64,000 nucleotides of DNA, taken from a virus (lineage: Duplodnaviria; Heunggongvirae; Uroviricota; Caudoviricetes). The DNA lies in IMG/VR virus record IMGVR_UViG_3300029705_006930. The stretch is one strand, 5' to 3'. A program made the position numbers and the translations under genes. This document shows, piece by piece, positions 2,410 to 51,809 of the stretch. The notes beneath the pieces are model-generated. The model was given only the letters and a program-made list of their open reading frames with translations, had not been told where the DNA came from and did not search any database. Every line of letters starts with the position of its first letter. Position 1 is the stretch's first letter.

Positions 2410-2441
2410 AAATCTGCGCCTGCGTCGAAGATATATATACC

Positions 2442-2620: not shown

Positions 2621-3442
2621 CTACCCATTTAATGCGCTGTCAATACTGTCCGCCATCGCATTAATTTCGCCCTGTGTTATTGTAAGGTATGTTTTTGTTA
2701 CGCGCTGGTCACTGTGCTTGTACTTTGCCTGCAAGATGTCCATAACACTGTCGTTGTTCATTGTTTTGCGCGCTGTGTATCCGTATGTTTTGCGCAGTGT
2801 ATGTGTTGCCACGTTCTGTGTGAGGCCCGCCGCCTTTGCACCTTTCTTTAAAATGTCCCACATTTGGTGCAGGCTCATTTGCCCGCCATTGTCACTTTTC
2901 TGGGACTTGATAAGGTAGTCGCTCATTGTATAGTTGCCGTTGAGATGTTCAATGTACATTTCAATGGCTTTTTTTGCGCCCGCTGTTATTTTGTTGCGAT
3001 TGTACTTGCCGGTCTTTTGTTCGTACACATCATAGTAATCTTTTACTGTACCATCCTCATTGAGAACGTCACTGATGCGCGCTCTGAGCAGGTCACTGCC
3101 TCTGTCCCCAATGGTGCAGCCAAACACTACCATCATATAATTGCGGTACTTGTGTCGGCCCCCATGTTCAAGGAAGTAGTTTGCGAGACGCTGAAATTCG
3201 TCCGCGCTGTAAAGAGGCTCTGCACTCTGTGCCTTTTTCACGCCATTGCTTTTGTAAGGCGACGCTGTTCTTGGTGCACGCTGTTTTGGCGCTGGCTTTG
3301 CTGCGGCCATTGCCTGAGCCACTGCATTTGCTATGATGCTCTGGAGCTCGTCCTGTGTCATTTGGAGCTTTGGTGCTGCCGCCTGTGCAGGAAAGTTGAT
3401 TGTATTATTCTGTACGTTTTGTTCTTTTGGCTGAGCGTTCAT
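2621..3442 (-). CDS. int: tyrosine recombinase / phage integrase (small, 273 aa)
   Basis: Catalytic-domain motifs are present: GDRGSDLLRARISDV (Arg), ATHTLRKTYGY (H-x-x-R) and HSDQRVTKTYL (His and the Tyr nucleophile). GGAGG SD. Confidence 0.8.
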   Translation of the reverse strand: MNAQPKEQNVQNNTINFPAQAAAPKLQMTQDELQSIIANAVAQAMAAAKPAPKQRAPRTASPYKSNGVKKAQSAEPLYSADEFQRLANYFLEHGGRHKYRNYMMVVFGCTIGDRGSDLLRARISDVLNEDGTVKDYYDVYEQKTGKYNRNKITAGAKKAIEMYIEHLNGNYTMSDYLIKSQKSDNGGQMSLHQMWDILKKGAKAAGLTQNVATHTLRKTYGYTARKTMNNDSVMDILQAKYKHSDQRVTKTYLTITQGEINAMADSIDSALNG

Positions 3443-24908: not shown

Positions 24909-25262
24909 ATGCAAGAGGTTAGATTTTTACTTGATTTTTATGTGCCTTTTAACAGGTGGAAAATAGCTTTGATGAATGTTCCCGAAGAACAATATAAAAT
25001 CAATCCAGGTTTAGGAATATCTCTTACACAGTTTGCATATGATGAACACTTGTCCGAAGGTGGTAATCATTATGAATTTGCGTGTCAGGTGCCAAAGCGA
25101 TTTTATAGATTGCTTAGATTACATCCGGATTGGGAGCCTGTAGATGCTGTAGAACTTGCGAGAATGCTTGAAGGTTATATTAAAGCTGATTGGTCTATTG
25201 AATATAATCCTCCAATTATTACATATGAAACAAGCTTTGAGGAACTGATGGGAGGAGTTTAG
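24909..25262 (+). CDS. tail-family member 1 of 13
   Basis: C-terminus ITYETSFEELMGGV. N-terminus LLDFYVPF. Confidence 0.7.
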   Translation: MQEVRFLLDFYVPFNRWKIALMNVPEEQYKINPGLGISLTQFAYDEHLSEGGNHYEFACQVPKRFYRLLRLHPDWEPVDAVELARMLEGYIKADWSIEYNPPIITYETSFEELMGGV

Positions 25263-25263
25263 T

Positions 25264-25590
25264 ATGGAAGAAATGAGTTCAACCAGACTAGCCATTACTC
25301 CGCTGATTGACAAAACACGATATGGATGCGGAGTTGTAGGTGCAGGATATCCATGCGAAATTACATCAGATGCCGTTGAATTTATTAGTAGCATAGCAAC
25401 AGAAACATATACGACGGGAACAGGCCGTGTGGATTATACAATATCACATCCAGCATCCATATATAATGATGTCGTCTCTGAAGGAAGATGTTTGACACAA
25501 GCAGTGTTAGATTATATTTTTAATCATGTATTAATCCAAGGTATTGATTATGAAATGAATTTTGAAGAACTTATGAAAGGAGAGCCATAA
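25264..25590 (+). CDS. tail-family member 2
   Basis: C-terminus IDYEMNFEELMKGEP. Confidence 0.7.
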   Translation: MEEMSSTRLAITPLIDKTRYGCGVVGAGYPCEITSDAVEFISSIATETYTTGTGRVDYTISHPASIYNDVVSEGRCLTQAVLDYIFNHVLIQGIDYEMNFEELMKGEP

Positions 25591-26057
25591 TGGAGATACA
25601 GAATTTTTGTGAATATTTTAATATTCCAACCAACGCAGATATCTCTGTACAACGTGCTGATGACCCATTTGAACGAATGCAGATAGTAGCAGAATATTTT
25701 TCAGGTGGTGGTTGTAAATGTGAACATATAATTAATTTCGATATGGCTCTTTTATATGCTCAACCAAATGAGGCAGTTTACTCTATTTTATATATTGCTA
25801 ATAATATGATACTGAATATTCCAAAACAGTTATTTGATGCAATATTTATTGAATCAAATAATTTTGAGACTGCATCAAATATACCACATTATATAGCTGT
25901 ATTCTCACAATCATCAATGAATTTAGCACAACGAAAAACACAAGTTGAGGAATTGATAAAAAAACATCAGGAGATATTGCATAATCATCATATACCAGAA
26001 ATTATATATGACTTGGATTTTGATAACTTAATGATAGGAGGTAATGCATCATGTTAG
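25590..26057 (+). CDS. tail-family member 3
   Basis: C-terminus IIYDLDFDNLMIGGNASC. N-terminus QNFCEYFNI. Confidence 0.7.
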   Translation: MEIQNFCEYFNIPTNADISVQRADDPFERMQIVAEYFSGGGCKCEHIINFDMALLYAQPNEAVYSILYIANNMILNIPKQLFDAIFIESNNFETASNIPHYIAVFSQSSMNLAQRKTQVEELIKKHQEILHNHHIPEIIYDLDFDNLMIGGNASC

Positions 26058-26473
26058 ATTTTTACGAGCATTTTGGATTATCTGAAGATGTTCGGGTAAC
26101 AGCTGAATCTGTAGATGATGAACTACGTATAGTTTGTTGGGATAATGAGACAAAATATATTGTTCCGTTTGATATGATTATCTTGCCAGAGTGGTGGGGT
26201 GATGAAAAAAATGCATATATCCTGACTAAAAATGATACATTTATTCGTATGCCTCATGGTTTGGCTGTAAATGTTTTTGAAAGAGCGCGTGGTGGTTATT
26301 GGCATTATGACAATGATAAATGGGTAGCTGTGTCCTCATGTTATTTAGGTTATGAAAGAATTCAGAAGAAAGCATCTATTTTGCTGCGAAATATAAATAA
26401 TATTTTAATGGAAGAAGATAGTCATAGAAGCTCAATATCTTATGATGTTGAGTTTGATGCATTATTTAAATAA
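26051..26473 (+). CDS. tail-family member 4
   Basis: C-terminus ISYDVEFDALFK. N-terminus MLDFYEHFGL. Confidence 0.7.
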   Translation: MLDFYEHFGLSEDVRVTAESVDDELRIVCWDNETKYIVPFDMIILPEWWGDEKNAYILTKNDTFIRMPHGLAVNVFERARGGYWHYDNDKWVAVSSCYLGYERIQKKASILLRNINNILMEEDSHRSSISYDVEFDALFK

Positions 26474-26483
26474 AGGAGAACAA

Positions 26484-26813
26484 ATGAATATAACATTTTA
26501 TATACATAGTACAGGGCGTCAATATTTTTTAACTGCGCTGGGCGGTGCAGCCGTGCGTATCAGTCAAAATATGTATACAAGATTACAAAGACATTCTGTG
26601 GATGCAGGCGATGAAATGGTTAACCGAAGAGTTCGCACCAAACGTATTTTAAATATTGAAGATTTAAATTTCGAGAACAATTATAACTACAATACATATC
26701 GTTTGTATGATTTCTTAGAAAGAAATTACAGGTCATGGCGTAACTACACCACAATCACCTCAGAAATTGTTTATGACGAAAATGCTCTATCTTGGGACGC
26801 TCTTTTTCAGTAA
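26484..26813 (+). CDS. tail-family member 5 (divergent tail)
   Basis: C-terminus IVYDENALSWDALFQ. ATG 26484 after AAAGGAG. Confidence 0.65.
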   Translation: MNITFYIHSTGRQYFLTALGGAAVRISQNMYTRLQRHSVDAGDEMVNRRVRTKRILNIEDLNFENNYNYNTYRLYDFLERNYRSWRNYTTITSEIVYDENALSWDALFQ

Positions 26814-26825
26814 AGGAGATAATAT

Positions 26826-27185
26826 ATGAACGAACATAAACGGATTTTACCAGAAGAGGGTGCCTATGAGGAACGATTTGCTGTTTATCCAAACCCTAAA
26901 GAACCAACTACATATGTGATGGATGTAAGGTCGCTGACAAGATACAATCCAGCGAGCAGTTTGGTTATTGATGATGCAGTTTTGGAATCACTCAGTATAT
27001 TGTCTTACCACAGTTTTGAAGCTGTACGTCCAGATACAACAGTATATTGCATGTTTATAAAAGATGCAGAAAAAGACAATTTTTTAAAAGACCCTGTGCA
27101 TTGGTTGCTACAAACACAAGTTATGAATACTCCAAGAATGGAATATGAGTTGGATTTTGACACACTGATAGGAGTGATAAAATGA
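26826..27185 (+). CDS. tail-family member 6
   Basis: C-terminus MEYELDFDTLIGVIK. Confidence 0.7.
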   Translation: MNEHKRILPEEGAYEERFAVYPNPKEPTTYVMDVRSLTRYNPASSLVIDDAVLESLSILSYHSFEAVRPDTTVYCMFIKDAEKDNFLKDPVHWLLQTQVMNTPRMEYELDFDTLIGVIK

Positions 27186-27646
27186 GAAACTTTGAAGAAG
27201 TTTTCCCAATTGATTCTAATATTGAGTGTTATATAGCGCATCAAACATTGGTGAATTTGAAGTTGGCAATAGCAAATAAATATGACACATCACAAATAAT
27301 GACGACAATAGCTTTTGATTATGTGATACGTATATTCCCGGCGTCCCATCTTGATAACCCAATTACAATTATTAGTATAAATGGGCGCAAATATTGGTTA
27401 TCTTATAAGTTATATACCAAAATATTTATGCGCAGCCGCAGAAATCAGCGTGTGTTGTTTAATGAAGACAATCAACAAGAGGATATTGGACTGGTTATTA
27501 TGATTAGCAATAGTCCGGTGCATTTAGACAACGTATCGGATATTGTAACGGAAATTATTGAGCAAAAATGGTCAGGGCCCATAGGCATAATGAATGAGTT
27601 ACAGCAAATTGAATATATAGGGAGTTTTGAAGATTTATTAAAGTAA
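27182..27646 (+). CDS. tail-family member 7
   Basis: C-terminus IEYIGSFEDLLK. N-terminus MRNFEEVFPI. Confidence 0.7.
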   Translation: MRNFEEVFPIDSNIECYIAHQTLVNLKLAIANKYDTSQIMTTIAFDYVIRIFPASHLDNPITIISINGRKYWLSYKLYTKIFMRSRRNQRVLFNEDNQQEDIGLVIMISNSPVHLDNVSDIVTEIIEQKWSGPIGIMNELQQIEYIGSFEDLLK

Positions 27647-27658
27647 GGAGATGATTTT

Positions 27659-28144
27659 ATGGCACACATAGATTTAGGCAATGAATATTATACACATGTT
27701 ATCTCGGAAATCAGAATTACGCCTCCAGAATCTGTAAATGATATGTTGATTCCAAGCAGAGCAATTCATTGTAACCCTTATACAGACAACGTATGGGCAC
27801 AAATCAGATTTCACTTACATAATCAATTATGTCACCGTGGCTATATATATTGGATTGAAAATGCAATATCTAAACCAGATGGTATGGTGTATTTAAATTT
27901 GTCTCCATATCCTGTATTAGGTCGTGATAAGCAATGTTGTATGAGTAAAGAATTGTTTGAAATGCTTCTTGAATATGCAAGAAATATCAAGCACTATGGT
28001 AGCTTACACAGTACTTGTGATTGGCAAAGCAGGGAATATACAATGCTGAAAGTGCGCGAGACAATTTCTGCAATGCTTAAAAAAATAGAATATGCAATGG
28101 ATTTTGATGAGCTCTTAGGAGGTCAGAAATATGACAGCGATTGA
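27659..28144 (+). CDS. tail-family member 8
   Basis: C-terminus IEYAMDFDELLGGQKYDSD. Confidence 0.7.
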   Translation: MAHIDLGNEYYTHVISEIRITPPESVNDMLIPSRAIHCNPYTDNVWAQIRFHLHNQLCHRGYIYWIENAISKPDGMVYLNLSPYPVLGRDKQCCMSKELFEMLLEYARNIKHYGSLHSTCDWQSREYTMLKVRETISAMLKKIEYAMDFDELLGGQKYDSD

Positions 28145-28499
28145 TTTATTAACACAAAAGGATGTACCTAAAGGAGCATATCGAGTATTGATAGTATGTG
28201 ATGCCACTATAGGTTTTGTGTGTAAGCATTATGCATTGATAGAAAATGAAAACAAAACTTGTCAATATATTATCGAGTGTCAAATACAAGGGGATTTGGA
28301 AAAGTTTTATAGTGCCACATATCAAGGCTTGAAGATGGAATTCTATCGGGTTACTACAGTTGAACAGCCTGCAATAACCGAGGATTCACTTGAAATTCAG
28401 AGGATGATAGATTTCTTATTTCAGGTATATCACATAAATTTAAAGTACGAAAATATGTGTTATGAAATTGATTTTGACCAGTTGATGGGAGGAATATAA
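28131..28499 (+). CDS. tail-family member 9
   Basis: C-terminus CYEIDFDQLMGGI. Confidence 0.7.
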   Translation: MTAIDLLTQKDVPKGAYRVLIVCDATIGFVCKHYALIENENKTCQYIIECQIQGDLEKFYSATYQGLKMEFYRVTTVEQPAITEDSLEIQRMIDFLFQVYHINLKYENMCYEIDFDQLMGGI

Positions 28500-28951
28500 T
28501 GTTTGCAACAATGGTAAATGGTGAAAAACATCTGATAACGCAAGTTGATTGGAGGCCTATATTTAATGATGATGGAAAATGTATTGAAAGAGAAATTTCT
28601 ATAAAGTTCGACTATGATGAATCATTGCGAGCAGCAAAATATAGAGTTGGCTGGTTTGTTGATGAGCATGTAAATAACGAAATACAAGTACATTTAAAAT
28701 TGCGTAATGATAAAACAATTCCAGTTATGATTCCTACGATACTCGCAGAAGCAATGGTGGAATATCAACGCAAATTGCAAAAAGAAGGGTTCTGTGGTTT
28801 GGCTACAGGAGCTCCAGAGTGGTTGTTGACATGGTATTCTGAACAACAACTGAAATTTGGAACTGAAAATGTATTTCATTTTAATAGAACAAATGAAATT
28901 AAGACAATGACTTATGAAGTGGATTTATTTGAGGAGTTGATAAACAGTTGA
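28499..28951 (+). CDS. tail-family member 10
   Basis: C-terminus MTYEVDLFEELINS. Confidence 0.7.
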   Translation: MFATMVNGEKHLITQVDWRPIFNDDGKCIEREISIKFDYDESLRAAKYRVGWFVDEHVNNEIQVHLKLRNDKTIPVMIPTILAEAMVEYQRKLQKEGFCGLATGAPEWLLTWYSEQQLKFGTENVFHFNRTNEIKTMTYEVDLFEELINS

Positions 28952-29238
28952 ACAAACAAGATGAAGGATATGCCACACTGGGTGATATGACTGCAATATT
29001 TGCAACCATAAATGACCGGACAGACTATTTGGAACATCTGGCGAATTCATCAGCAGCCCGTATTATGGATATAGAGTCAAAAAGTGATTGTTATATAACT
29101 CAATCTTCGCTATATTGTATGCGCGATGACCTCTTACAGCAGATTAGTGAGCTTCGAGAGACAGTGAACATTTTGCTGGACAAGTATAATGCACTAAACC
29201 CACCTATCAGCTTTGATGAAATGATGGAAGGAGAATAA
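28948..29238 (+). CDS. tail-family member 11 (TTG start)
   Basis: C-terminus PISFDEMMEGE. Confidence 0.6.
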   Translation: MNKQDEGYATLGDMTAIFATINDRTDYLEHLANSSAARIMDIESKSDCYITQSSLYCMRDDLLQQISELRETVNILLDKYNALNPPISFDEMMEGE

Positions 29239-29239
29239 T

Positions 29240-29530
29240 ATGCATTTTAATGAACATCTTCGTAGGGTATGGGAGCGAACTACTGCTGCAATAACTACAT
29301 CTGACCATACGGAAAATACAGTGACTTCGTATGTTACAACAAGAAGTGTTCCTGATTATTGTACTACAAGCTGGACAGCACAACCATCATATAAACAATG
29401 GGTACATAAAGATGATTTGGATGCATTAAGATATTCCCTTGGCTGGGCAACGTCAAATCCGGCAGTAAAAGAGCCAGTATCACCGAAATACGATATGGAG
29501 TTTGAAGATTTGTTCAAGGAGGAGACATAA
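29240..29530 (+). CDS. tail-family member 12
   Basis: C-terminus KYDMEFEDLFKEET. Confidence 0.7.
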   Translation: MHFNEHLRRVWERTTAAITTSDHTENTVTSYVTTRSVPDYCTTSWTAQPSYKQWVHKDDLDALRYSLGWATSNPAVKEPVSPKYDMEFEDLFKEET

Positions 29531-29763
29531 TGCCGCCGAGACCAACATTTTTTGATGAGTTTACAGAAAATATAGTGCACAACACAATGCGAGAATTATC
29601 TGAATATGCAGCCCACTCCACGTTATCAATGGAAGACTCATTAGCTGATTTGAAAGAAACGTTGAAACGACTAAACATAAGTATTAATTTTGTAGAAACA
29701 GAATCTTTGACAGAAATTACATATGAGGCAGAATTTGAAGATTTAATGAAAGGAGATAAGTAA
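29530..29763 (+). CDS. tail-family member 13
   Basis: C-terminus ITYEAEFEDLMKGDK. Confidence 0.7.
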   Translation: MPPRPTFFDEFTENIVHNTMRELSEYAAHSTLSMEDSLADLKETLKRLNISINFVETESLTEITYEAEFEDLMKGDK

Positions 29764-38919: not shown

Positions 38920-38938
38920 ATAAGATGAGGTGAAATAC

Positions 38939-41006: not shown

Positions 41007-42227
41007 ATGGAAACAAGATTTAGTTTTACCGGGAAACTTGTATTCCCAAAAGAAGGCTCTAAACAGCCTTTTGTGGTGTCCTCATCATACAAAGATGCTG
41101 GCTCACAGAAAGAAATTCCATCTTTGCGAATGAATGTCGGCATCCGCGAAGGTGAAGCAAATACTGCTTATATCAGTGCGTTTGGTTCAGCAGATAATGG
41201 CAGAGATATTTTCTCAATAGACAAAGACAATAACAAGATTTCGGTTGCTTGGAAAGACCGATTTGATGCAGATGTTATTGAATCTGTAGCTTCTTATCGT
41301 CTTTATACTGTTGACTTAGCTGACCCAGAACAGAAGGCAGATTTGCGAGAAGCACTTAAAACCGATGACTATTCTATTGTGTCTGAAAAATATGGTGTAA
41401 CAAATAAAGATGGTGCTGATGCAATGCTTAAAGCTTTGCAGTCAGAACGTAAACAGTTTATTACTTCATATGATTTTATTGAATACCTGTCAAAAGAACT
41501 TCCTAAATGCAAACACAAAGTAACTGCAACAGGTCGAGTACGTAAAAGATTTTATAAGGACAGATATTCTGATAATTTTGAAGTTACAGCTATTTATGCT
41601 GTAACCAATGACACAAAAGAAAAACTGAGTCTCACAATGGACTTGTACTACAACAAAGATTGTGTTGATGCAACTGACCTGGAAACTGAAAAACGTATTT
41701 ATGTAAACGGTTATGTGCAGCAGTACATCAATAAAGATGAGGGTAACAAAATGATGCCTCAGCAGGCAATTCTTGATTTGTCAAAGTATCAGCTTGAAAC
41801 AAACCCGCGACATAAACAGTTGGCTGACTATAAACGTAGCTATCTTGAAGGCTTAGACGAAGAATATGTACATATGAATTGGGAAGTGCGCTATCTCAAT
41901 GGTGCAGATGTGGTTGAGTTTACAAAAGATTTGCTTACTCCGGCACAGCTTGCTCAGGTGGAACTTGGCATAAAAAATGTGGAAGATTTTAAACCACGCG
42001 GAAACATTTTTGGTGAACGAGTTGTCGAATATCGTCTTGCTGACCCAAAACTTATGGGTGATTTTGCTGATGGTTTGGTAAAAACAGGTGAGTATCCAAA
42101 TGAATTTGAAGCTCAGATTTATGTTCCTAACAAGACAGTAAATATTGAAGCAGAAGTTGCAAAAGTTACAGCACCTAAAGAAACTAAAAAAGCAATTGAC
42201 GAAATCAGTGAAGAAGACCTCTTTTAA
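41007..42227 (+). CDS. putative ssDNA-binding protein (acidic EEDLF C-terminus)
   Basis: Sits at the head of the replication module. The N-terminus FSFTGKLVFPKEG is OB-like and the tail is EISEEDLF. No firm domain call. Confidence 0.35.
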   Translation: METRFSFTGKLVFPKEGSKQPFVVSSSYKDAGSQKEIPSLRMNVGIREGEANTAYISAFGSADNGRDIFSIDKDNNKISVAWKDRFDADVIESVASYRLYTVDLADPEQKADLREALKTDDYSIVSEKYGVTNKDGADAMLKALQSERKQFITSYDFIEYLSKELPKCKHKVTATGRVRKRFYKDRYSDNFEVTAIYAVTNDTKEKLSLTMDLYYNKDCVDATDLETEKRIYVNGYVQQYINKDEGNKMMPQQAILDLSKYQLETNPRHKQLADYKRSYLEGLDEEYVHMNWEVRYLNGADVVEFTKDLLTPAQLAQVELGIKNVEDFKPRGNIFGERVVEYRLADPKLMGDFADGLVKTGEYPNEFEAQIYVPNKTVNIEAEVAKVTAPKETKKAIDEISEEDLF

Positions 42228-42238: not shown

Positions 42239-43393
42239 ATGGGATTTGGTAAAAAGAACAGAGTGGACTTGAATCCGCTTCATTATAATATAGGCCTTTT
42301 GGGTGAAGGTGGTATCGGTAAAACTACATTGTTTAAAGAAGTTTGTGAAACTCTTGCGCCAGAAGTAAATGGTGCAAGCGGATATCTTCATTTGGACATT
42401 GGTAAAGAGGATGGTTCAGAAGCGCTCGAAGGTCTTAATTCAGAAAAGGTTCGTAATTGGGCAAAATTTGCAGCAGTTGTAGATGATATTGTAAAGAATA
42501 AATATACTGACCCTGATTATGCCAATTTGCAAACAGTTATTGTGGATACATGGGATGAACTTATTAAAATTACAGAACCTGAAGTAATCCGTTTACACAA
42601 TAAAGAAAATCCAGATAAACCTAAAATTACTTCTATTAAACAGGCATATGGTGGATTCTCTGGTGGCCCGGATAAAGTAACTGAGCTCATTTTGGATAAA
42701 CTTTGGGAACTTAAAGAAGTTGATGTGCACTTTATGACAATTATCCACACAAAATCTAAGGAAGTAGATGACCCTGTTACTGGTGCATCATATTCAATTC
42801 TGACATCAGATACTACTCAGAGATATTTCAATGCTCTGAAAAATAAACTGCATTTCCTTGGTGTTGCTTATGTCGACAGAACCATTGTCAAGGAAAAAAC
42901 TGGCAAGAAAGATATTATGACTAAGAAGGATATTGAACGTAGTATTGTAACAGATGAAAAGCGTGTAATTAAATTCAGAGATAATAACTATAGTGTGGAT
43001 GCAAAATCACGTTTTGCAGAAATTACAGATAGTGTACCTTTTGATAAAGATGAATTCATTAAAGCTATCCAGGATGCAATCCTTGCTGAAAGTGCAAAAG
43101 GTAATCGTACAGAAGAAGAAAATAAAAAGCTACAGAAGGAAGCAGACGCAAAGAAAACAGAACAGGCAAAATCATATGCAAAATCTAAGGTGGAAGCTGA
43201 AGACTATGCTGAAAAATCCAATGAATATATTGCATATATCAAAGACAATTTCACCAAATGTACTGCTGCAACCAAAGCAGAAGTAAAAGCAACTATGGCT
43301 GAATACAACTTTGAAAAATTTACTGATGACAATATTCCGCTTGAGGCATTGGAAAAGATTACCAATATTATTTCAGCTTCATTGAAAGGTTAA
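42239..43393 (+). CDS. P-loop ATPase, RecA-superfamily (Sak4/AAA_24-like)
   Basis: Walker A GEGGIGKTT and Walker B VIVDTWDE. Confidence 0.55.
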   Translation: MGFGKKNRVDLNPLHYNIGLLGEGGIGKTTLFKEVCETLAPEVNGASGYLHLDIGKEDGSEALEGLNSEKVRNWAKFAAVVDDIVKNKYTDPDYANLQTVIVDTWDELIKITEPEVIRLHNKENPDKPKITSIKQAYGGFSGGPDKVTELILDKLWELKEVDVHFMTIIHTKSKEVDDPVTGASYSILTSDTTQRYFNALKNKLHFLGVAYVDRTIVKEKTGKKDIMTKKDIERSIVTDEKRVIKFRDNNYSVDAKSRFAEITDSVPFDKDEFIKAIQDAILAESAKGNRTEEENKKLQKEADAKKTEQAKSYAKSKVEAEDYAEKSNEYIAYIKDNFTKCTAATKAEVKATMAEYNFEKFTDDNIPLEALEKITNIISASLKG

Positions 43394-43397: not shown

Positions 43398-43916
43398 ATG
43401 GCAAGAATAGTTACTTGTGCTGTGACAAAAGAAAAAGGAACCAGTGATGTTTTTTATAAGGCGGACAATGGAAAATGGTATAAGAGCGAATCTGTATTTC
43501 GTCAGTTTCAGAAAGATAAACACACCAGAGAAACTATTCAACGTGTTTTACTTACATATCTTGGATATCAGAAAGGAGAGCCATTTCCGGCTCTCCTCAA
43601 CAAAAAGATAAAAGAATATTCTTTTTATTCACCAGAAGTATTGCTTGAAACAATTACAAAGTGTGAAAAAGACATTACATGGGCATTCAATAATAAAGAA
43701 TTTTCTTCTACACAAGGCAAAATATTTTATATGTTTGCAATCATTTCAAATCATATCAGTGATGTGAATAGACAAAACAATAAAGTGAATGAGCTAAGAA
43801 ATAAACAAACTCAAAAACACATCGATACCATCCAAGAAATGGACATTTCAACCATCGGCACATCAAAAAAAGGTAAAGATATTACGGATTTCTTGGAGGA
43901 TGATTTATGGAATTAG
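43398..43916 (+). CDS. hypothetical protein (C-terminus FLEDDLWN)
   Basis: ORF track. Sits in the replication module. Confidence 0.6.
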   Translation: MARIVTCAVTKEKGTSDVFYKADNGKWYKSESVFRQFQKDKHTRETIQRVLLTYLGYQKGEPFPALLNKKIKEYSFYSPEVLLETITKCEKDITWAFNNKEFSSTQGKIFYMFAIISNHISDVNRQNNKVNELRNKQTQKHIDTIQEMDISTIGTSKKGKDITDFLEDDLWN

Positions 43917-45379
43917 ATGTATTGTTGCAAAAAATTAATGAACATCGTGGTGAAATTGAAGCCCCATTTGTTTTTTGTTTATGGAAGAATCCGGATTTAT
44001 ATGATGATTATAAATTTGTAAACGAAAAAGAAGACGATATCATTCGTAATCCTGATGCACAGTTTTATTTCAATTTAGGTAGAGCACTGTATAAAGCTGG
44101 ATATCGCAATTTTGACCATATTGCTGTCTACACTTTTCTTCAAGACAAAGAAACAATAAAAAAGCAGTTTGACAGTTATGGTGGTTTCAAAGAAGTTGAA
44201 GAATTTAAAGGCTTAGTCAGCATAGAGAATGTTAATGCATATTTTGATAAAGTAGCAAGACTTAATATTCTTGATGAAATGTGCAAGATGATGTTTTCAT
44301 CATTTGATAAACTTGAAAAGTTTGATAGGATGACAAGTCAGCAGATTTACGATTATTTTGAGTACAAATTAAATGACATTAGTATCACCGCAACGCATGA
44401 TGTTGAAGAAGAAAGTTTGGTCATTGATGATGCTTTTATTGAAGAGTGCAATAGCGGTGATACTGTTGGAATCAGTTATGGCAAGCAGTGCCCATTATTG
44501 AATTATTTAACATTAGGAGTTCCACTTGGTGAAATGTATATGATTGCTGGACATAGTGGTGCAGGCAAATCTAGTTTTGCATTTGAAAATATGGCTATTC
44601 CAATGGCCCAAGACGGCATAAAGGTAGCTATTGTTTCTAATGAAATGCGAAGCAAAGATTATAAAGTAATGTTACTTGCCCATATATTAACAAAAGACCT
44701 AAATTATTGGGGCTTGACACGCAAACAAATAAAAATAGGCCACTTTACAGACGAACAAAAGATAATGATTGCCAAGGCACAAAAAATTAGTAAAGAAAAA
44801 TATAGCAATCTCAAATTTGTGAAACTGTTTGATAATGATGTTTCTAAAGTTATGAAATACATCAAGATGAACGCCAAAAAAGGTTATCAGGTTTTTCTAT
44901 GGGACACAATGAAGAGTGATGATAGTCTTGATGAAAAAATGTTTTTGCAATTATTAGTCAATAGCAGAAAGGTTTTTCAGTTGGCATCAAAAGAAAACAT
45001 TGCAATTATTACAACTTATCAGTTGGCACTATATACCGTTAATCAAAGATATTTGGATGCGGGATGTCTTGCAAATGGTAAACAGATAAAAGAAGTGTTT
45101 TCTGAAATGGTTTACATGCGTACTTTATGGGATGACGAATACACAGGCAAAAAATTTGATTGTCGACCATACAATTTACAGCGTAATGCAGAGGGCAAAT
45201 ATACTGGTGTTAAGCAATATGTTGAATTAAACCCAGATAATAAATATATAGTTGTCTTTTTGGATAAGACTCGCAATGATGAAGACAAGCAGCAGGTTTT
45301 ATACGAAGTAAACGGTCGTTTTAATAGCTGGAAAGAAATTGGCCGTTGCAACATAGTTAATGAACATGGAAGGTATTAA
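43907..45379 (+). CDS. dnaB: replicative DNA helicase, DnaB family
   Basis: Walker A GHSGAGKSS, then VSNEMRS and IITTYQL. Size and N-domain are consistent with DnaB. Confidence 0.75.
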   Translation: MELDVLLQKINEHRGEIEAPFVFCLWKNPDLYDDYKFVNEKEDDIIRNPDAQFYFNLGRALYKAGYRNFDHIAVYTFLQDKETIKKQFDSYGGFKEVEEFKGLVSIENVNAYFDKVARLNILDEMCKMMFSSFDKLEKFDRMTSQQIYDYFEYKLNDISITATHDVEEESLVIDDAFIEECNSGDTVGISYGKQCPLLNYLTLGVPLGEMYMIAGHSGAGKSSFAFENMAIPMAQDGIKVAIVSNEMRSKDYKVMLLAHILTKDLNYWGLTRKQIKIGHFTDEQKIMIAKAQKISKEKYSNLKFVKLFDNDVSKVMKYIKMNAKKGYQVFLWDTMKSDDSLDEKMFLQLLVNSRKVFQLASKENIAIITTYQLALYTVNQRYLDAGCLANGKQIKEVFSEMVYMRTLWDDEYTGKKFDCRPYNLQRNAEGKYTGVKQYVELNPDNKYIVVFLDKTRNDEDKQQVLYEVNGRFNSWKEIGRCNIVNEHGRY

Positions 45380-46217: not shown

Positions 46218-47234
46218 TTGAATGATTATCTGCAAGCACGTCCGGACGACGTACTTAAAGTCCTTAATTCATTGGGATTACCTAATTTGTCACATAACAG
46301 AGGACGAAATGAAATCAGATATTCATCAAGAGTAGGTAGCAATCCTACCTCAAATATTTTTTATTTAGATACACTTAGGTATTACAGCTTTTCAATGGGT
46401 GAAAGTGGAAATCTTTACACATTGGTGATGAACAATCAGAATTGTAATTTCCCGCAAGCCTTAGAATATGTGGCGCAAGTAGTTGGACTTTCCAAAAATG
46501 AATTCAATACTGAAATCAAATTACCATTTGGTGGCTTCTATAAAAAACTCATAAAACAACAGCGCGAACCTGAGTTGGACATACCTACATATCCTGATTC
46601 GCTCCTTGAGGAATACAACGGGCAGCTAAGTCTACAATTTTTTAATGATGGCATCAATTTCCAAACACAAGAAAAATATCATATTGGGGTTGATTTTTCT
46701 GCAATGCGCATAGCAATTCCACAATGGACAATTAATGGTCAGTTATGCGGAATTATGGGCAGAGCAATGGGAAAAGATGTACCGCATGAAGAACGTTGGC
46801 TACCTATTATTCCGTGCACGAAAAGCTACACATTATTTGGCTATCATCAAAACTATCATAAAATTCAAGAAAAAAATATGTGCATTGTATTTGAAAGTGA
46901 AAAAGCTGTATGTCAGCTTGATAGTTTTGGTTGTTATATTGGACTTGCAACAGGGGGATGTCATATTTCTTCAACACAAGCCAAATATTTGCGTGCATTA
47001 AGAGTTGAAAAAATTATTATTGCTTATGATGAGGGCCTTGATGAAGAACATATTATTGCCCAGGCACAAAGACTTCGCAGTAATGAAAATCAGCTTGTTA
47101 GAGGAGCGAAGATAGGATATATCTGGGACGATAATAATACATATTTGCCACTTGGCAGCAAAATGAATGCAGCTGATGTTGGTAAAGAAAAATTTATAAA
47201 ATTAATCAAAGAAAAAGTGAGGTGGCTCGAATAG
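46218..47234 (+). CDS. dnaG: DNA primase (DnaG-like, Toprim)
   Basis: VFESEKAV...IIAYDEGLDEE (Toprim E and DxD). The TTG start overlaps the stop of a 4-codon leader ORF. Confidence 0.7.
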   Translation: MNDYLQARPDDVLKVLNSLGLPNLSHNRGRNEIRYSSRVGSNPTSNIFYLDTLRYYSFSMGESGNLYTLVMNNQNCNFPQALEYVAQVVGLSKNEFNTEIKLPFGGFYKKLIKQQREPELDIPTYPDSLLEEYNGQLSLQFFNDGINFQTQEKYHIGVDFSAMRIAIPQWTINGQLCGIMGRAMGKDVPHEERWLPIIPCTKSYTLFGYHQNYHKIQEKNMCIVFESEKAVCQLDSFGCYIGLATGGCHISSTQAKYLRALRVEKIIIAYDEGLDEEHIIAQAQRLRSNENQLVRGAKIGYIWDDNNTYLPLGSKMNAADVGKEKFIKLIKEKVRWLE

Positions 47235-48325
47235 CTGTAAGAGAAAAAGATATAACACTTGAAGAATTACAAAAACAAGGTAAAAAATTATATTCAATTT
47301 CAAAAGCAGACACAATTGACCAGTGTCATTATCAGGCATATCTTGCATACATCGTACACAGTAAATCGGTTCCTAATATTTATTCATTAATGGGTTCTAA
47401 AATTCATGACACTTTAGAAGGCATTATGAATCAGAAAAATACAACGGAAGATTTGATTGTAGCTCTAGATAATGAGCTTGAAGATATGCAAATGCTTGGA
47501 TTTGATTTTCCTCGCGATAGCAGAGGAAAAACATCTATCCGTGATAATTGGATAAAAAATATGCGTCATTTCTGTAGCAATTTTATACCGCCACGAGGCG
47601 AGTTTGAAACTGAACAGTTATTTATATATCCACTCACAAAAGACAGATATGTACGAGGTTATATTGACCTTGTTCAGCATCTGGATAAAGATACAAAAAC
47701 AATTTCAATTTGGGACTGGAAAACTTCCTCACAATTTTCTCAGGAAACATTATTGGAACACGGCAGACAGCTTGTTATATATGCCATTGCAAAAGAAGCA
47801 GAAGGCTATACCGTCAAAGACGTAGGCTGGATAATGCTTAAATATGTTGAAATTGTTTTTCAAGGCAAATTGCGCAGAAATTCTAAAGAAAAAACTAAGA
47901 TTACCAAAGTTTGTGACCGTTATAAGATAGTACAAACATTGCAGCCATATTTAGAGCAAGAGCTGATAGAAGCTGGCTATGATGATATAGATATTGAAAT
48001 GTTTATGATAGATGCACTGGAAAATAATTCATTGGATAAGCTTCCAAATGAAATTCGTTCCAAATTTATCATTAAACCATATGTAAGGCGCTATCCGATA
48101 ACCGAAAAGCTCAAACAGGAAACCTTAGATTACATAAATCATCAGGCTGATATTTTTGAGTCATTGCCTAAAAATGATAAATCAGCCTGGAAGCCTAAAG
48201 TGATTGATAAAGGCAATGAATTTTTCTGCAATTATCTTTGTGATTATAAGTCTTCTTGCGAATATATTGCCAGATATAATCTTGAAAAACAGTTGGCAAA
48301 AACTTCAGATGAAGAATTATTTTAG
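47231..48325 (+). CDS. PD-(D/E)XK exonuclease with Cas4/AddB-like Cys cluster; C-terminus SDEELF
   Basis: GYIDLV...IWDWKTS. Cys in DQCHY plus CNYLCDYKSSC. Start is ATA 47231, or GTG 47222 which lies inside the SD. Confidence 0.7.
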   Translation: MAVREKDITLEELQKQGKKLYSISKADTIDQCHYQAYLAYIVHSKSVPNIYSLMGSKIHDTLEGIMNQKNTTEDLIVALDNELEDMQMLGFDFPRDSRGKTSIRDNWIKNMRHFCSNFIPPRGEFETEQLFIYPLTKDRYVRGYIDLVQHLDKDTKTISIWDWKTSSQFSQETLLEHGRQLVIYAIAKEAEGYTVKDVGWIMLKYVEIVFQGKLRRNSKEKTKITKVCDRYKIVQTLQPYLEQELIEAGYDDIDIEMFMIDALENNSLDKLPNEIRSKFIIKPYVRRYPITEKLKQETLDYINHQADIFESLPKNDKSAWKPKVIDKGNEFFCNYLCDYKSSCEYIARYNLEKQLAKTSDEELF

Positions 48326-48333: not shown

Positions 48334-49006
48334 ATGCAGAATTATCATTGCCATACCAGTTATAGTAATTTGTTTTCATTTGACTCTATTGCATCTTATG
48401 AAGATTATGCAAAACGAGCTCAGGAACTTGGGCACAAAGTTATTTCATCTGTCGAACACGGCTGGCAATGTAATTATTATGTACCATATGGCATAGCTCA
48501 AAAATATGGATTGAAATTTGTTTTTGGTACAGAAGCATATTGGGTAAAAGACAGGATAGAAAAAGATAATAAGAATAACCATATTATTATTCTTGCAAAA
48601 AATGAAAACGGCAGACAAGCCATAAATGATATTTTAGCAGAAGCTAATATTACAGGTTACTATTATAAACCACGTTTGGATACAAAACTGATTCTGTCTT
48701 TACCCGCCAATGATGTCTTTATTACAACAGCATGTGTTGGATTTTATGGATATGGTTTTGAAGAAAGTGAAAAATTTATTGTTCAGTTGCATAAGCACTT
48801 TAAAAATAATTTTATGCTTGAAATTCAAAATCATAATACTGACAAGCAAAGAGAATTAAATAACCAAATTAAAAAGTGGTCAAAAAAATACAATATTGAA
48901 ATGATTGTTGGGTTAGATAGTCATTATATATATCCAGAGGATGCTGGTCTTCGTGATGAAGCTCTTAAATCAAAAGGCATTATTTATGAAGATGAATCTG
49001 GTTGGT
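48334..49006 (+). CDS. dnaE: DNA polymerase III alpha (DnaE-type), exon 1 / PHP domain
   Basis: YHCHTSYSN, SSVEHG and HIIILAKNENG. The frame stops 8 codons after the proposed splice site. Confidence 0.8.
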
Positions 49007-49275
49007 ATTCTAAATGCCGTTTAATTTAGTAATAAATTAAATAATTACTGGGGAAAATCGGTGAAGTCCTCCAATGATATAGGATAATACCGAGGTAAAC
49101 AATAAAATTGCGTAAGGTTTATTGTCACCGTAGAGCATAGATAGTGAATAAATATAATCTATCCAAGAGTCTCCAGCATCCCACCTAAATATAGAGGATG
49201 AAAATATATGCCGAGCTTACATAATGGAAAAATGTAAGAACTATGGGGTAAAAAACCTATAGGATAACAAAACTG
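49007..49275 (+). mobile_element. putative ORF-less group I intron (3' boundary 49263 or 49275)
   Basis: P1-like hairpin 49004-49018 with a U-G wobble at 49006/49016. Several internal hairpins. A G precedes both candidate 3' sites, and either one restores the TAT codon and the frame. Confidence 0.5.
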
Positions 49276-51809
49276 ATATGGACTATCCCTCTGACAATGA
49301 ATGCATAAAGCGTTTTTTAGACCAAGGAATTTTTACTGAGACAGAAATTCAACGTGCAATGGATAACACAGATATCTGCTTAACATTTGAGAATTTTTAT
49401 TTTAGTAAAGATATTAAACTACCAACTTTATATCCAGACAAGACTCAAGAGGAAAAGAACAAGATATATTCAAGACTGATTACAAAAAAGTTTAAAGAAT
49501 ATATGAAATATGTTCCTGCTGAAGACTATGACAGATATTATCAAGGTGTTAAAGAAGAAGTTCAGGTATATAAAGATACTGGTATGGTTGACTATCCGCT
49601 AATCAACTATGAAGTTATTAAGCGCGGGATTGAATTGGGCGGGGTAATTACAGATAGTGGACGTGGTTCCGCTGTTGGCTTCTTCACAAACACATTGTGT
49701 GGATTCTCAAAAGTTGACCGTTTTACATCTGCAATTCATCTTTATCCAGAGCGCTTTATGTCAACAAGCCGAATATTAGAGTCCGGCTCCCTACCAGATA
49801 TTGACTTTAACGTAGCTAATACTGAGCCTTTTGAACGAGCACAAAAAGAAATACTTGGAGAAGAACATTCATATCCAATGATTGCATTTGGCACTTTGAA
49901 AAAGAAATCTGCTTTTAAGCTTTATGCAAGAGCAAAAGATGTGCCAGCTGCCATTGCAAATGAAATCACAAAACAGATTGAAAAATATGAAAATGATTTA
50001 AAACATGCCGATGATGATGACAGGCGCGATATAAATATCTATGACTATGTAGATGAACAGTATCATGACCATTTGAGACAGAGTGAATCATATTGGGGTA
50101 TCATTTCTGACCGCAAAAAAGCTCCATCGGCACATCTCTTATATCAAGGCAATATTCGTAAAGAAATTGGGCTCATTAAATGTAAGAGTGAAAGTACCAA
50201 GAAGGAATGCATCACTTGTGTTATTGATGGTGCAGTCGCAGAAGAATATAAATTTTTGAAAAATGACCTGCTCACTGTAAATGTGGTGGATATTATTGAC
50301 CGTGTTTTTAAACGTATTGGCATTGAGCATTTTAATGTAAATACATTGTTGGGACTTATTAAAAATGATAAACCGACTTGGGATATTTATGCTAAAGGTT
50401 TGACTATAGGTGTTAACCAATGTGAAAAAGCCTCAACAACAAAAAAAGCAATGCGATATAAACCACGAAACCCATCTGAGCTCTCGGCATTTATAGCAGG
50501 TATTCGTCCAGGCTTTAAATCAATGTATCCGATTTTTGAAAGTAGACAGCCGTTCTCATATGGAGTTGCTACACTGGATAATCTGCTGATTACCGAAGAA
50601 CTTCCGATTCCCTTTATGATTTTCCAGGAACAGACAATGAAAGTCCTTAACTATGCTGGATTTCCAATGGACGAATGCTATGGTCTTATTAAAGCTATCA
50701 GTAAAAAGAAACCAGAAAAGGTAAAAGCAATCAAAGATGATTTTATTAAAAATTTCTGCAAACAAATTCAAGAAGATAATGGACTTGATTTTGAAATTGC
50801 ACAAAATAACAGTGAAAAAGTATGGACAGTAGTAAATGATAACTCAGGTTATGCATTTAACAGTTCTCATGCATACTGTATGGCGTTGGATAGCTTATAT
50901 TGTGCTTATCTCAAATCTCACTATCCTTATGAATTTTATGAGGTACTTCTCACATTTTATTCCAACAAAGGCAACAAAGATAAAGTTGCTGAACTGAAAA
51001 GAGAAATGCTCCAAGGTTTTGGTATCAGAGAAGGCAAGTTTAAGTTTGGCAATGATAATCGCAGCTTTAAAGCCGACAAAGAAAACGGTGTTATATATTC
51101 ATCACTATTATCATTAAAAAATATGAACCAGAAATGTTCTGAGGACTTATATGCTTTATCACAAAAAAAACAATATACAAACTTTTTTACACTGCTCAAA
51201 GATATTAAACAACTTAAGAGTCTGAAATCTGACCAGCTTAATATTTTGATTAATATTGGATATTTTGATGATTTTGGTACAGTCCCACAGATTCAGACAT
51301 TTGTAAAAGCATATGACGACCTTTATGGACGAGCTCAATTTTCCAAAGATAATCTGGATGCTAATTATGCAGCACTTATTGCTGCTGACAGTACGCAGAC
51401 TGAAAAACAATATCGCAACTTTGATTATGAAAATGCATTGCATAAATTGTGGATGCAAATTCCGCCAATTAAATTAGGTTTGCATCAGAAAATTAAAAAC
51501 GAACTTGAATATTTTGGATACATACAAACAATCATACCAAAGCTCTCAGATGAATATGTAGTCGTAACTGATAAGATTGACAAATATTCGAAACTGACGG
51601 TCACGGTTTATGTATTACAGACTGGAGCAATTCATACTTATCGAATGCGAAGCAGAGTTGCAGAGCAATGCGGAACAATTAATGTGGGCGATATTATTAA
51701 ACTGATGAAGTTTAGCGAAGAAAAGAAATGGACAAAAAATGTCAACGGAGATTGGGTACACACAGATGAAACCGAAACACTCATTAAAAAATATGCACTG
51801 ACAAGATGA
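49276..51809 (+). CDS. dnaE: DNA polymerase III alpha (DnaE-type), exon 2 / polymerase core
   Basis: GRGSAVGFF...VDRF...PDIDFNV (palm), then the finger and OB-like regions. Confidence 0.85.

What the first reader, a model, noticed from the sequence alone, without database searches (positions are those of the whole stretch)
41007..42227. Shared acidic [DE][DE][DE]-L-F extreme C-termini on replication-module proteins, echoing the 13-gene family tail
Three proteins end the same way:
- the putative SSB (41007-42227) ends EISEEDLF
- the Cas4-like nuclease (47231-48325) ends TSDEELF
- the minus-strand winged-helix protein (1456-2409) ends ISDDELF

In addition, 43398-43916 ends FLEDDLWN.

Bacterial SSB uses an acidic tail ending in Phe (DDDIPF) as a hub-binding peptide, and several phage replisome proteins use C-terminal acidic/Phe tails. 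The same chemistry (F-[ED]-[ED]-L-[FM]) closes the 13-gene family. That family might therefore compete for, or be recruited to, the same binding pocket.
Basis: partly seen in the sequence, partly recalled or inferred. Interest (0 to 1): 0.55.

Follow-up and report, generated by a model that had tools for sequence, protein, structure and literature searches.

The report
Shared acidic docking tail on phage replication proteins
Three unrelated DNA-handling proteins of this gut phage (a two-OB-fold single-strand-binding protein, a recombination nuclease and a plasmid-Rep-like initiator) all end in the same flexible acidic "...S-D/E-D/E-D/E-L-F" peptide, which is kept and co-varies across more than 100 related phages, so it is most likely a common address tag that docks them onto one replication/recombination partner, as SSB tails do in bacteria and phage T7.

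Summary
In the window, [DE][DE][DE]LF occurs four times in about 18,500 proteome positions, and three of those are exact C-termini. Codon usage differs between the three.

- **41007-42227.** No Pfam or PHROG hit, but a confident AF2 model shows tandem OB folds closest to Thermus SSB, then a disordered linker and the tip. It sits upstream of a Sak4-like annealase. Most of about 110 orthologs in 129 loci end acidic-[LIM]-F. Orthologs in Bacillus-type and Lactococcus phages end in the canonical SSB tip DDLPF.
- **PD-(D/E)XK nuclease.** It keeps the same tip, and the tip co-varies with the SSB tip in four independent variants.
- **Third protein (true start 2382).** It has a π/RepA/RepE-like two-winged-helix initiator fold and iteron-like repeats upstream. 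It lies in a conserved recombinase–Rep–ligase cassette. Four of six distant homologs keep an acidic-L-(P)-F/Y tip.
- **43398 protein.** It carries a different conserved tail.
- **13-gene family.** Its motif is a distinct, longer, orphan motif. A link to the tails is untested.

Best reading: an SSB-Ct-class docking peptide shared by three proteins, following the logic of T7 gp2.5 and gp4. The partner pocket is not identified. This is a new variant of a known kind, of moderate interest.

The parts
41007..42227 (+). Tandem-OB-fold SSB-like protein (406 aa): folded body to about residue 387, disordered linker 388-403, tip ...ISEEDLF
42204..42224 (+). Tail tip ISEEDLF of the SSB-like protein
   Evidence: 40 of 43 homologs end [DE]x[DE/x][LIM]F, with or without 1-3 extra residues.
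42239..43393 (+). Sak4-like AAA_24 ssDNA-annealing ATPase (candidate docking partner; no tail)
   Evidence: PF13479, 1.1e-20. (phrog_124, 3.4e-21). The precedent for a Sak4 to SSB-tail dependence is (PMC5928155).
43398..43916 (+). Small conserved protein (phrog_6344; a relative hits Pfam Phage_SPbeta_YorH). Its gene overlaps the helicase gene start. It has its own conserved tail ...DITDFLEDDLWN.
   Evidence: No PDB or Pfam match.
43907..45379 (+). DnaB-like replicative helicase (candidate docking partner; no tail)
46218..47234 (+). DnaG-type primase (no tail)
47222..48325 (+). Cas4-like PD-(D/E)XK exonuclease. A linker of about 20 residues follows the last Cys, then the tip ...TSDEELF (tip = 48302-48322).
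   Evidence: (PF12705, 8.7e-15). (phrog_1218). (tip conserved; linker variable).
48334..51809 (+). Phage PolIIIα-type polymerase, split into a PHP part (48334-49029) and a core (49278-51809). Candidate docking partner; no tail.
1456..2382 (-). Rep (π/RepA/RepE)-like two-winged-helix protein (308 aa) with linker and tip ...ISDDELF (tip = 1459-1479)
2437..2489 (.). Iteron-like tandem repeat (16-nt unit, 3.2 copies) directly upstream of the Rep-like gene
   Evidence: There is an analogous 14-nt x 4.5 array upstream of the homolog in L087.
110..1411 (-). ATP-dependent DNA ligase, downstream partner of the Rep-like gene in a conserved cassette
   Evidence: PF01068. The cassette is conserved in L087 and L088.
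2621..3442 (-). Small tyrosine recombinase, first gene of the recombinase-Rep-ligase cassette
   Evidence: PF00589..
24909..29763 (+). 13 tandem paralogs that share only a near-C-terminal motif, Y-[ED]-x-x-F-[DE]-x-L-[MFLI]. The relation to the tails is unproven.

Best explanation
The S-[DE]3-L-F ends are copies of one short linear docking motif of the SSB C-terminal-tip class. Each is an acidic run ending in Leu-Phe, held on a disordered, fast-evolving linker.

**The three carriers mark three kinds of DNA.**
- The tandem-OB SSB marks ssDNA gaps.
- The Cas4-like 5'-3' exonuclease marks resected ends.
- The Rep-like initiator marks the origin (iterons).

**Proposed mechanism.** All three tips fit one basic/hydrophobic pocket on a shared, conserved partner of the replication-recombination module, so that partner is brought to each of these DNA structures. 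This is the logic of phage T7, where the acidic Phe-terminated tails of gp2.5 and gp4 use the same basic patch of the polymerase. It is also the logic of HK620, where Sak4 needs the last six residues of its cognate SSB.

**Most likely partner.** In order: the adjacent Sak4-like ATPase; the DnaB-like helicase or its putative small loader (43398); the PolIIIα-type polymerase; a host protein.

**What is shown.** The motif, its conservation, its co-variation, the folds and the synteny.

**What is inferred.** That it is a docking peptide, and which protein holds the pocket.
For: 1. **Non-random and at protein level.**
2. **Tip-on-a-linker architecture.**
   - SSB-like residues 388-403 have pLDDT below 50, and the upstream linker is hypervariable and K/E/D-rich while the tip is fixed.
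   - The nuclease linker after the last Cys is 4-26 residues and variable, while the tip is fixed.
   - In the Rep-like family the body ends at P-x-E-I-x-E-Y-L, followed by a variable linker and the tip.
3. **Conservation at 23-63% identity in three unrelated families.**. Only 3 of 1551 other ORFs have such an end.
4. **Co-variation of SSB-like and nuclease tips within genomes.**

   | SSB-like tip | Nuclease tip | Where |
   |---|---|---|
   | DDLF | [DEN]DLF | most loci |
   | TLEDLLG | EDLESFL / EDIDQFI | L006, L076, L077, L083 |
   | DIDTMF | GIDDLF | MT835556 |
   | DDDFFSDLAL | DVDSFFNF | TR-TP2 |

5. **SSB identity.** Fold. Orthologs ending in the canonical DDLPF. A conserved position upstream of the Sak4-like gene.
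6. **Literature.** Sak4 genes usually sit next to an SSB gene, and Sak4 binding to SSB-coated ssDNA needs the SSB's last six residues (PMC5928155). The T7 gp2.5 tail anchors on the polymerase front basic patch, the site where a gp4-tail peptide (DTDF) is seen in PDB 6P7E (PMC12339929).
7. **RecJ-type exonuclease.** Where the exonuclease is RecJ-like, the SSB tip is canonical and the nuclease has no tail (Lactococcus 949). RecJ is known to bind SSB tips through its own pocket; that point rests on my own knowledge.
Against: - No binding partner was identified, and no interaction was modelled or measured.
- Several orthologs carry 1-3 residues after the Phe (DDLFS, DDLFG, DLFN, DDLFGNL). That is unlike canonical SSB tips, whose terminal carboxylate is read by the partner.
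- The window tip lacks the Pro of DDD[IL]PF.
- In Perkons and LC76P1 the SSB-like protein has DDLPF but the nuclease ends in basic ...KKIGF / ...RKSF, so sharing is not universal.
- The Rep-like family could be paired with an SSB only in this one genome.
Confidence: 0.68

Rival explanations
1. The tips are sliding-clamp-binding motifs. The tail ...D-L-F equals the last three residues of the optimal bacterial clamp-binding pentapeptide QL-D-L-F. The nuclease, initiator and SSB would be tethered to the host β clamp, which the clamp-less phage PolIIIα must borrow.
For: - DLF/DMF ends resemble QLDLF and QADMF (own knowledge of clamp-binding motifs).
- The motif tolerates extra C-terminal residues, as clamp motifs do.
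- No phage clamp or clamp loader is seen in the window or in the annotated replication region of TR-TP2.
- Plasmid initiators such as RK2 TrfA carry a clamp-binding motif, and T4 uses shared C-terminal clamp-binding tails (own knowledge).
Against: - The defining Gln and the hydrophobic position 2 are replaced by Asp/Glu in nearly all orthologs.
- An SSB carrying a clamp motif is unprecedented.
- Orthologous SSB-like proteins switch to the canonical SSB tip DDLPF, not to QLxLF, and one Rep-like homolog ends DEELPF.
- No clamp-motif-like Qxx[LM]F is conserved in the phage polymerase.
Confidence: 0.14
2. The tips mimic the host SSB tail. The phage proteins would then hijack, or compete for, the host SSB interactome (PriA, RecJ, RecQ, RecO, DnaE, Ung and others) and not dock on a phage-encoded partner.
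For: - The close relation of DDLF to the Firmicutes SSB tip DDDLPF.
- Orthologs with exact DDLPF.
- Many SSB-like homologs carry an additional internal ...D-E-P-P-F-D... motif about 15 residues before the end, which suggests two separate docking sites.
Against: - The tip diverges in lineage-specific ways and the nuclease tip follows it (TLEDLLG/EDLESFL, DDDFF/DSFF). That is expected for a co-evolving phage partner, not for a strongly conserved host interactome.
- The consistent loss of the Pro argues for discrimination from the host tip.
Confidence: 0.12
3. The tips act in cis or on the SSB itself. As ssDNA mimics, they would fold back into the OB-fold DNA groove (autoinhibition, as in T7 gp2.5 and E. 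coli SSB). The nuclease and Rep tails would bind the phage SSB groove.
For: Acidic-aromatic tails of gp2.5 and E. coli SSB are reported to bind their own DNA-binding sites.
Against: - This does not explain why a nuclease and an initiator need the same tip.
- It would sequester them on DNA-free SSB.
- No precedent is known to me for a partner using such a tail to bind an SSB groove.
Confidence: 0.06

Closest known systems
Phage T7 gp2.5 (SSB) and gp4 (helicase-primase) acidic C-terminal tails ending in Phe
   Same: An SSB and a second replisome protein of the same phage both end in an acidic stretch plus a terminal Phe on a flexible tail. The T7 tails use the same basic patch on the polymerase (PMC12339929; Ghosh 2009 and Marintcheva 2009 as cited there).
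   Different: - Here the carriers are a tandem-OB SSB, a PD-(D/E)XK nuclease and a Rep-like initiator, not the helicase.
- The polymerase is PolIIIα-type, not Pol A.
- The tip is D-L-F, not D-F.
- The partner is unknown.
Bacterial SSB C-terminal tip (SSB-Ct, DDDIPF / DDDLPF) and the SSB interactome
   Same: OB-fold body, disordered linker and an acidic tip ending in a hydrophobic residue plus Phe. Orthologs in Perkons, LC76P1 and Lactococcus 949 carry DDLPF itself.
   Different: - No Pfam SSB match.
- Two OB folds per chain, as in Thermus/Deinococcus SSB.
- The Pro is missing.
- Extra residues after the Phe are tolerated.
- The same tip is also present on non-SSB proteins.
HK620 Sak4 and its cognate SSB (Hutinet et al. 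2018, PMC5928155)
   Same: The SSB gene is adjacent to a Sak4-family gene. There, the last six SSB residues are needed for Sak4 loading on SSB-coated ssDNA and for stimulating annealing.
   Different: - The HK620 SSB is a classical one-OB SSB ending NDYPPF.
- The Sak4-like protein here is about 130 residues longer.
- No exonuclease or initiator with the same tail is reported there.
Iteron-binding plasmid initiators (R6K π, pPS10 RepA, F RepE; Rep_3 type)
   Different: - No sequence-level match.
- It carries an SSB-tip-like tail.
- It is embedded in a recombinase-Rep-ligase cassette of a large temperate phage.
SPP1 replication/recombination set (G38P organizer, G39P loader, G40P helicase, G35P annealase, G34.1P exonuclease, G36P SSB)
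   Same: The same functional cast in a Firmicutes phage. The exonuclease, annealase and SSB cooperate in the theta-to-sigma switch (PMC5615212).
   Different: The protein families differ (RecT-type annealase, classical SSB). No shared tail has been described.

Membership tests
OB-fold SSB with disordered linker and acidic tip | OB-fold ssDNA-binding core | tested here: met
OB-fold SSB with disordered linker and acidic tip | Sequence match to the Pfam SSB family or a PHROG SSB family | tested here: not met
   0 Pfam families at E<=0.01 and 0 PHROGs at E<=0.001.
OB-fold SSB with disordered linker and acidic tip | Disordered C-terminal linker ending in a conserved acidic tip with terminal Phe | tested here: met
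   Residues 388-403 have pLDDT below 50. The tip [DE][DE]DLF is conserved in about 40 of 43 homologs while the linker varies.
OB-fold SSB with disordered linker and acidic tip | Canonical tip D-D-D-[IL]-P-F | tested here: not met
   The window tip is EEDLF, without Pro. The canonical tip is met only in distant orthologs: Perkons ENDLPF, LC76P1 EDDLPF, phage 949 DSDLPF.
OB-fold SSB with disordered linker and acidic tip | Binds ssDNA | not testable with these tools
   Needs EMSA or fluorescence titration with purified protein.
T7-type shared acidic/Phe tails | The SSB and another replisome protein of the same phage share an acidic, Phe-terminated tail | tested here: met
T7-type shared acidic/Phe tails | The tails bind one site on a common partner and are interchangeable | not testable with these tools
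   Only indirect support: co-variation of SSB and nuclease tips in four variants.
β-clamp-binding motif QL[SD]LF / QLxLxL | Gln at position 1 and hydrophobic residue at position 2 | tested here: not met
   Positions -5 and -4 are Asp/Glu in the window and in nearly all orthologs.
β-clamp-binding motif QL[SD]LF / QLxLxL | Leu/Met-Phe at positions 4-5, with or without trailing residues | tested here: met
   DLF, DMF and NLF ends, some followed by 1-3 residues.
Rep_3-type iteron initiators (π, RepA, RepE) | Two winged-helix domains (WH1-WH2) | tested here: met
Rep_3-type iteron initiators (π, RepA, RepE) | Sequence match to a Rep family profile | tested here: not met
   No Pfam or PHROG hit. The PDB profile search found nothing relevant.
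Rep_3-type iteron initiators (π, RepA, RepE) | Iterons next to the gene | tested here: inconclusive
   A 16-nt x 3.2 array lies at 2437-2489, and a 14-nt x 4.5 array lies upstream of the L087 homolog, with a shared TATAAAG core. The arrays are short, and binding was not tested.
Cas4-like PD-(D/E)XK exonuclease | PDDEXK_1 domain and C-terminal Cys cluster | tested here: met
   PF12705 at 8.7e-15 and phrog_1218 at 6.4e-29. The Cys-rich C-terminus FFCNYLCDYKSSCEY is seen.
Sak4 annealase | AAA_24 RecA-like core next to an SSB gene | tested here: met
   PF13479 at 1.1e-20 and phrog_124 at 3.4e-21. Synteny.

The most novel reading that the evidence does not exclude
The tail is a phage-private address code. 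A single pocket on the helicase-loading or annealing machinery (Sak4-like ATPase, DnaB-like helicase or the small 43398 protein) would read the same peptide on the origin initiator, on the SSB and on the end-resecting nuclease. Origin-dependent, gap-dependent and recombination-dependent replisome assembly would then be unified by one SLiM. The 13 tandem orphan proteins, whose F-[DE]-x-L-[MFLI] ends resemble it, would be competitors or adaptors that plug or exploit the same pocket.
Probability: 0.12. Interest if true: 0.75.

Novelty: new variant of a known kind. Interest (0 to 1): 0.52.

Why it matters
**A testable interaction hypothesis.** Acidic, Phe-terminated tails are the main wiring principle of bacterial and T7 replisomes. 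Here the same principle appears in a large, uncharacterized lineage of temperate phages of gut Firmicutes. The lineage shows one conserved gene order: SSB-like, Sak4-like, small protein, DnaB, primase, nuclease, PolIIIα. In this lineage the tail sits on a previously unannotated tandem-OB SSB family, on a recombination nuclease and on a Rep-like initiator. The co-variation data point to one pocket and three clients. Cultured relatives exist in which to test this: Thomasclavelia phage TR-TP1/TP2, Lactococcus 949-group phages, Psychrobacillus phage Perkons and Lysinibacillus phage LC76P1.

**Annotation gains.** A family of about 400-aa 'hypothetical proteins' upstream of Sak4-like genes gets a functional label (SSB). 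An orphan protein next to a phage ligase also gets one (Rep-like initiator).

Tried and rejected
- **Chance, or a DNA-level repeat:** rejected.
- **Word-indexed homolog search for the Rep-like protein:** it found only a 98% copy. The exhaustive HMMER search was needed.
- **Near-identity DNA search in the phage collection:** no match.
- **Close relation to Bacillus SPβ:** tblastn with the SSB-like and Sak4-like proteins does not hit SPβ. The only SPβ links are precomputed Pfam hits (YorH family, MrpR) on relatives, so I do not claim membership of the SPβ group.
- **Identifying the small 43398 protein:** a profile of 18 orthologs against PDB and Pfam gave nothing usable.
- **Tracing the 13-gene family in other phages to test co-variation:** the alignment was too divergent for a locus scan. 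The protein search returned only near-identical variants of the same phage, and no family-like motif occurs in the other loci.
- **A clamp-binding motif in the phage polymerase:** none convincing.
- **RNA elements or tRNAs in the window:** none.
- **Literature on yorF/yorK of SPβ:** nothing useful.
- **Degron or secretion-signal readings of the tail:** considered and dropped. The carriers are all DNA-replication or recombination proteins, and the SSB-like orthologs switch to the canonical SSB tip.
Full report
**1. The observation**

- 41007-42227 ends AIDEISEEDLF.
- The nuclease ORF ending at 48325 ends AKTSDEELF.
- The minus-strand ORF ending at 1456 ends ADISDDELF.
- 43398-43916 ends DFLEDDLWN.

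Two coordinates need correcting.
- 47231 is an ATA codon. The nuclease ORF opens at GTG 47222.
- The minus-strand gene most likely starts at ATG 2382, six bases behind GGAGG, and not at TTG 2409. A 98% identical database protein is 308 aa.

The pattern is not chance.
- In a crude gene set of 111 ORFs, [DE][DE][DE]LF occurs four times in 18,516 positions, and three of the four are exactly at a C-terminus.
- The expected number of terminal hits is 0.006, giving P about 4e-8 for this post-hoc pattern.
- In a motif-agnostic control, three proteins share a reduced-alphabet pentamer class in only 6 of 2000 random draws.
- The three tails use different synonymous codons. The similarity is therefore at the protein level and is not a repeated DNA segment.
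- All three window tails extend to [IT]-S-[DE]3-L-F.

**2. What the carriers are**

The window (35% GC) carries a replication-recombination module, established.

| Window position | Protein |
|---|---|
| 41007 | unannotated protein (see below) |
| 42239 | Sak4-like AAA_24 ATPase |
| 43398 | small unknown protein (phrog_6344) |
| 43907 | DnaB-like helicase |
| 45382 | HNH endonuclease |
| 46218 | primase |
| 47222 | PD-(D/E)XK exonuclease |
| 48334 + 49278 | PHP part and PolIIIα core |

- A 16-nt tandem array (3.2 copies, 2437-2489) lies just upstream of its start.
- A 14-nt x 4.5 array with a similar TATAAAG core lies upstream of the homolog in L087.
- The gene sits between a small tyrosine recombinase (2621-3442) and an ATP-dependent ligase (110-1411). 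The same three-gene order recurs in L087, and the Rep-ligase pair recurs in L088.

**3. Conservation of the tails**

*SSB-like family.* Of 43 homologs down to 31% identity, almost all end [DE][DE]DLF, and a few have 1-3 extra residues. One subclade ends TLEDLLG. The 20-40 residues before the tip are hypervariable and K/E/D-rich.

*129 related loci.* The loci come from IMG/VR, GenBank phages, MAGs and assemblies. Both the SSB-like and the nuclease orthologs end acidic-[LIM]-F in nearly every case, with 57 distinct tail combinations.

*Specificity.* In the first 87 loci, 64/71 SSB-like and 52/62 nuclease orthologs carry such an end, against 3/1551 other ORFs. Sak4-like, DnaB-like, primase and polymerase orthologs never carry it.

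*Nuclease.* The tip follows the last Fe-S-type Cys by 4-26 variable residues.

*Rep-like family.* Tips are AADELF, PVDELF, IIDEELPF and DYSELY in four of six distant homologs. In the other two, one has no tail and one ends EHPF.

The finding passes it.

**4. Co-variation**

Within genomes, the SSB-like tip and the nuclease tip change together.

| SSB-like tip | Nuclease tip | Where |
|---|---|---|
| DDLF | [DEN]DLF | majority of loci |
| TLEDLLG | EDLESFL / EDIDQFI | L006, L076, L077, L083 |
| DDDIDTMF | VGIDDLF | MT835556 |
| DDDFFSDLAL | DVDSFFNF | Thomasclavelia phage TR-TP2 |

There are two informative exceptions.
- In Perkons and LC76P1 the SSB-like protein carries the canonical bacterial tip (ENDLPF, EDDLPF), and the nuclease ends in basic KKIGF / RKSF.
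- In Lactococcus phage 949 the SSB-like protein ends DSDLPF, and the exonuclease is RecJ-like and has no tail.

The switch between LF and LPF forms occurs in both the SSB-like and the Rep-like families. This ties the DDLF tip to the SSB-Ct class and away from clamp motifs. The clade with TLEDLLG/EDLESFL also lacks the small 43398-type gene between Sak4 and DnaB. That is a single evolutionary event, so it is only a hint.

**5. Mechanism**

The best-supported reading is a shared docking peptide. An acidic run plus Leu-Phe on a flexible linker fits one pocket on a conserved partner.

Two precedents support this.
- Sak4 genes usually lie next to an SSB gene. HK620 Sak4 needs the last six residues of its SSB to load on SSB-coated ssDNA and to anneal efficiently (PMC5928155).
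- In T7, the gp2.5 tail anchors on the front basic patch of the polymerase. That is the site where a gp4-tail peptide is seen (PMC12339929).

The three carriers mark three substrates on which a phage replisome or recombination machine must assemble. The Rep-like protein marks the origin, the SSB marks ssDNA, and the exonuclease marks resected ends. This parallels the SPP1 cast of organizer, SSB, exonuclease, annealase, loader and helicase (PMC5615212).

I cannot say which protein holds the pocket. I rank the candidates in this order:
1. Sak4-like ATPase
2. DnaB-like helicase or the 43398 protein
3. PolIIIα
4. a host protein

Three rival readings remain.
- **Host β clamp.** For: the DLF end matches the end of QLDLF, trailing residues are tolerated, and no phage clamp is seen. 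Against: the defining Gln-Leu is missing, and orthologs switch to SSB-type tips.
- **Mimicry of the host SSB tail.** Against: the tip shows lineage-specific co-variation, which a conserved host interactome would not produce.
- **Cis or ssDNA-mimic binding to the OB groove.**

**6. The 43398 tail and the 13-gene family**

*43398.* Its orthologs share their own motif, D-I-[ST]-x-[FW]-L followed by an acidic run and a hydrophobic end. Some stop right after FL. It is a separate conserved tail, not a copy of DDLF.

*13 paralogs (24909-29763).* They align only in Y-[ED]-x-[DESN]-F-[DE]-x-L-[MFLI].
- Synonymous codon variation shows protein-level selection.
- The residues after the motif (G-G, K-G; GGAGG-like codons) look like the ribosome-binding site of the next, tightly packed gene. 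The motif is therefore about as C-terminal as gene packing allows.
- It shares [DE]-x-L-Φ with the tails, and some nuclease tips (DEFADLF, DEFSDIF) resemble it.
- It has two extra anchored aromatics.
- The family was found only in near-identical variants of this phage and in none of the other loci.
- The 'same pocket' idea is therefore neither supported nor excluded. I give it about 0.1-0.2.

**7. Comparison and novelty**

It works like SSB-Ct and like the T7 gp2.5/gp4 tails.
- It is not a sequence-level member of the Pfam SSB family.
- It lacks the canonical Pro.
- It does not meet the clamp-motif definition.

The combination is not described in anything I could find. The combination is a tandem-OB SSB, a PD-(D/E)XK nuclease and a Rep-like initiator, all with a co-varying tip, across a large lineage of gut and soil Firmicutes phages. 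I rate it a new variant of a known kind, with interest about 0.5.

Noticed in passing
window 48334-51809 (gap 49009-49278): The PolIIIα-type polymerase is split exactly at residue 223/224 of the contiguous 1073-aa ortholog of L004. About 270 nt and a frame change lie between the PHP part and the core. No Rfam intron was found. In LC76P1 and TR-TP2 the polymerase is also in pieces, with HNH genes nearby.
   Followed up: partly
window 110-3442 (minus strand); L087 8902-12284; L088: A conserved cassette: small tyrosine recombinase, then Rep-like two-WH protein, then ATP-dependent DNA ligase, with iteron-like tandem repeats (window 2437-2489) in front of the Rep-like gene. It looks like a plasmid-type origin/resolution module inside a phage that also has a large serine integrase (62420-64000).
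   Followed up: partly
homologs P0022-P0032, P0042 of the 41007 protein; Perkons ORF106: Many SSB-like homologs carry a second, internal SSB-tip-like motif (…D-D-E-P-P-F-D… / …A-P-F-D…) about 15-20 residues before the terminal DDLF. This suggests two separate docking sites. The window protein lacks it.
   Followed up: no
window 24909-29763: Thirteen tandem, tightly packed paralogs (77-161 aa) have unalignable bodies and one conserved near-C-terminal motif, Y-E-x-D-F-D-E-L-M. They are an orphan family. One database variant (P0053) is a recombinant carrying the body of one paralog and the tail of another. The trailing Gly codons coincide with the next gene's Shine-Dalgarno.
   Followed up: partly
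window 16505-17860: A 451-aa protein matches PHROG 'polymerase' / reverse-transcriptase families (phrog_2825 at 1.1e-30; phrog_1423 at 4.9e-15). This may be a phage-borne RT.
   Followed up: no
window 55427-56749: A second ATP-dependent DNA ligase-like gene (phrog_114, 4.3e-64), in addition to the ligase at 110-1411. The neighbouring ribonucleotide-reductase ORFs (56628-60246) look fragmented.
   Followed up: no
window 38930-39931 and relatives L004, L006: An MrpR-like (SPβ master-repressor-type, tyrosine-recombinase-fold) gene lies a few kb upstream of the replication module, in the window and in relatives. FolD (35777-36598) and an SLT lysozyme (40208-40738) lie between. The gene order is conserved across the lineage.
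   Followed up: no
L089-L091 (genome contigs): The closest nuclease relatives in genome assemblies lie in MAGs labelled Christensenella sp. UBA941 and uncultured Lachnospiraceae. One family member (P0054) is recorded on a 326-kb contig. This suggests a prophage of gut Clostridia.
   Followed up: no
L006, L076, L077, L083: The clade with the variant tails (TLEDLLG / EDLESFL) has no 43398-type small gene between Sak4-like and DnaB-like.
   Followed up: no
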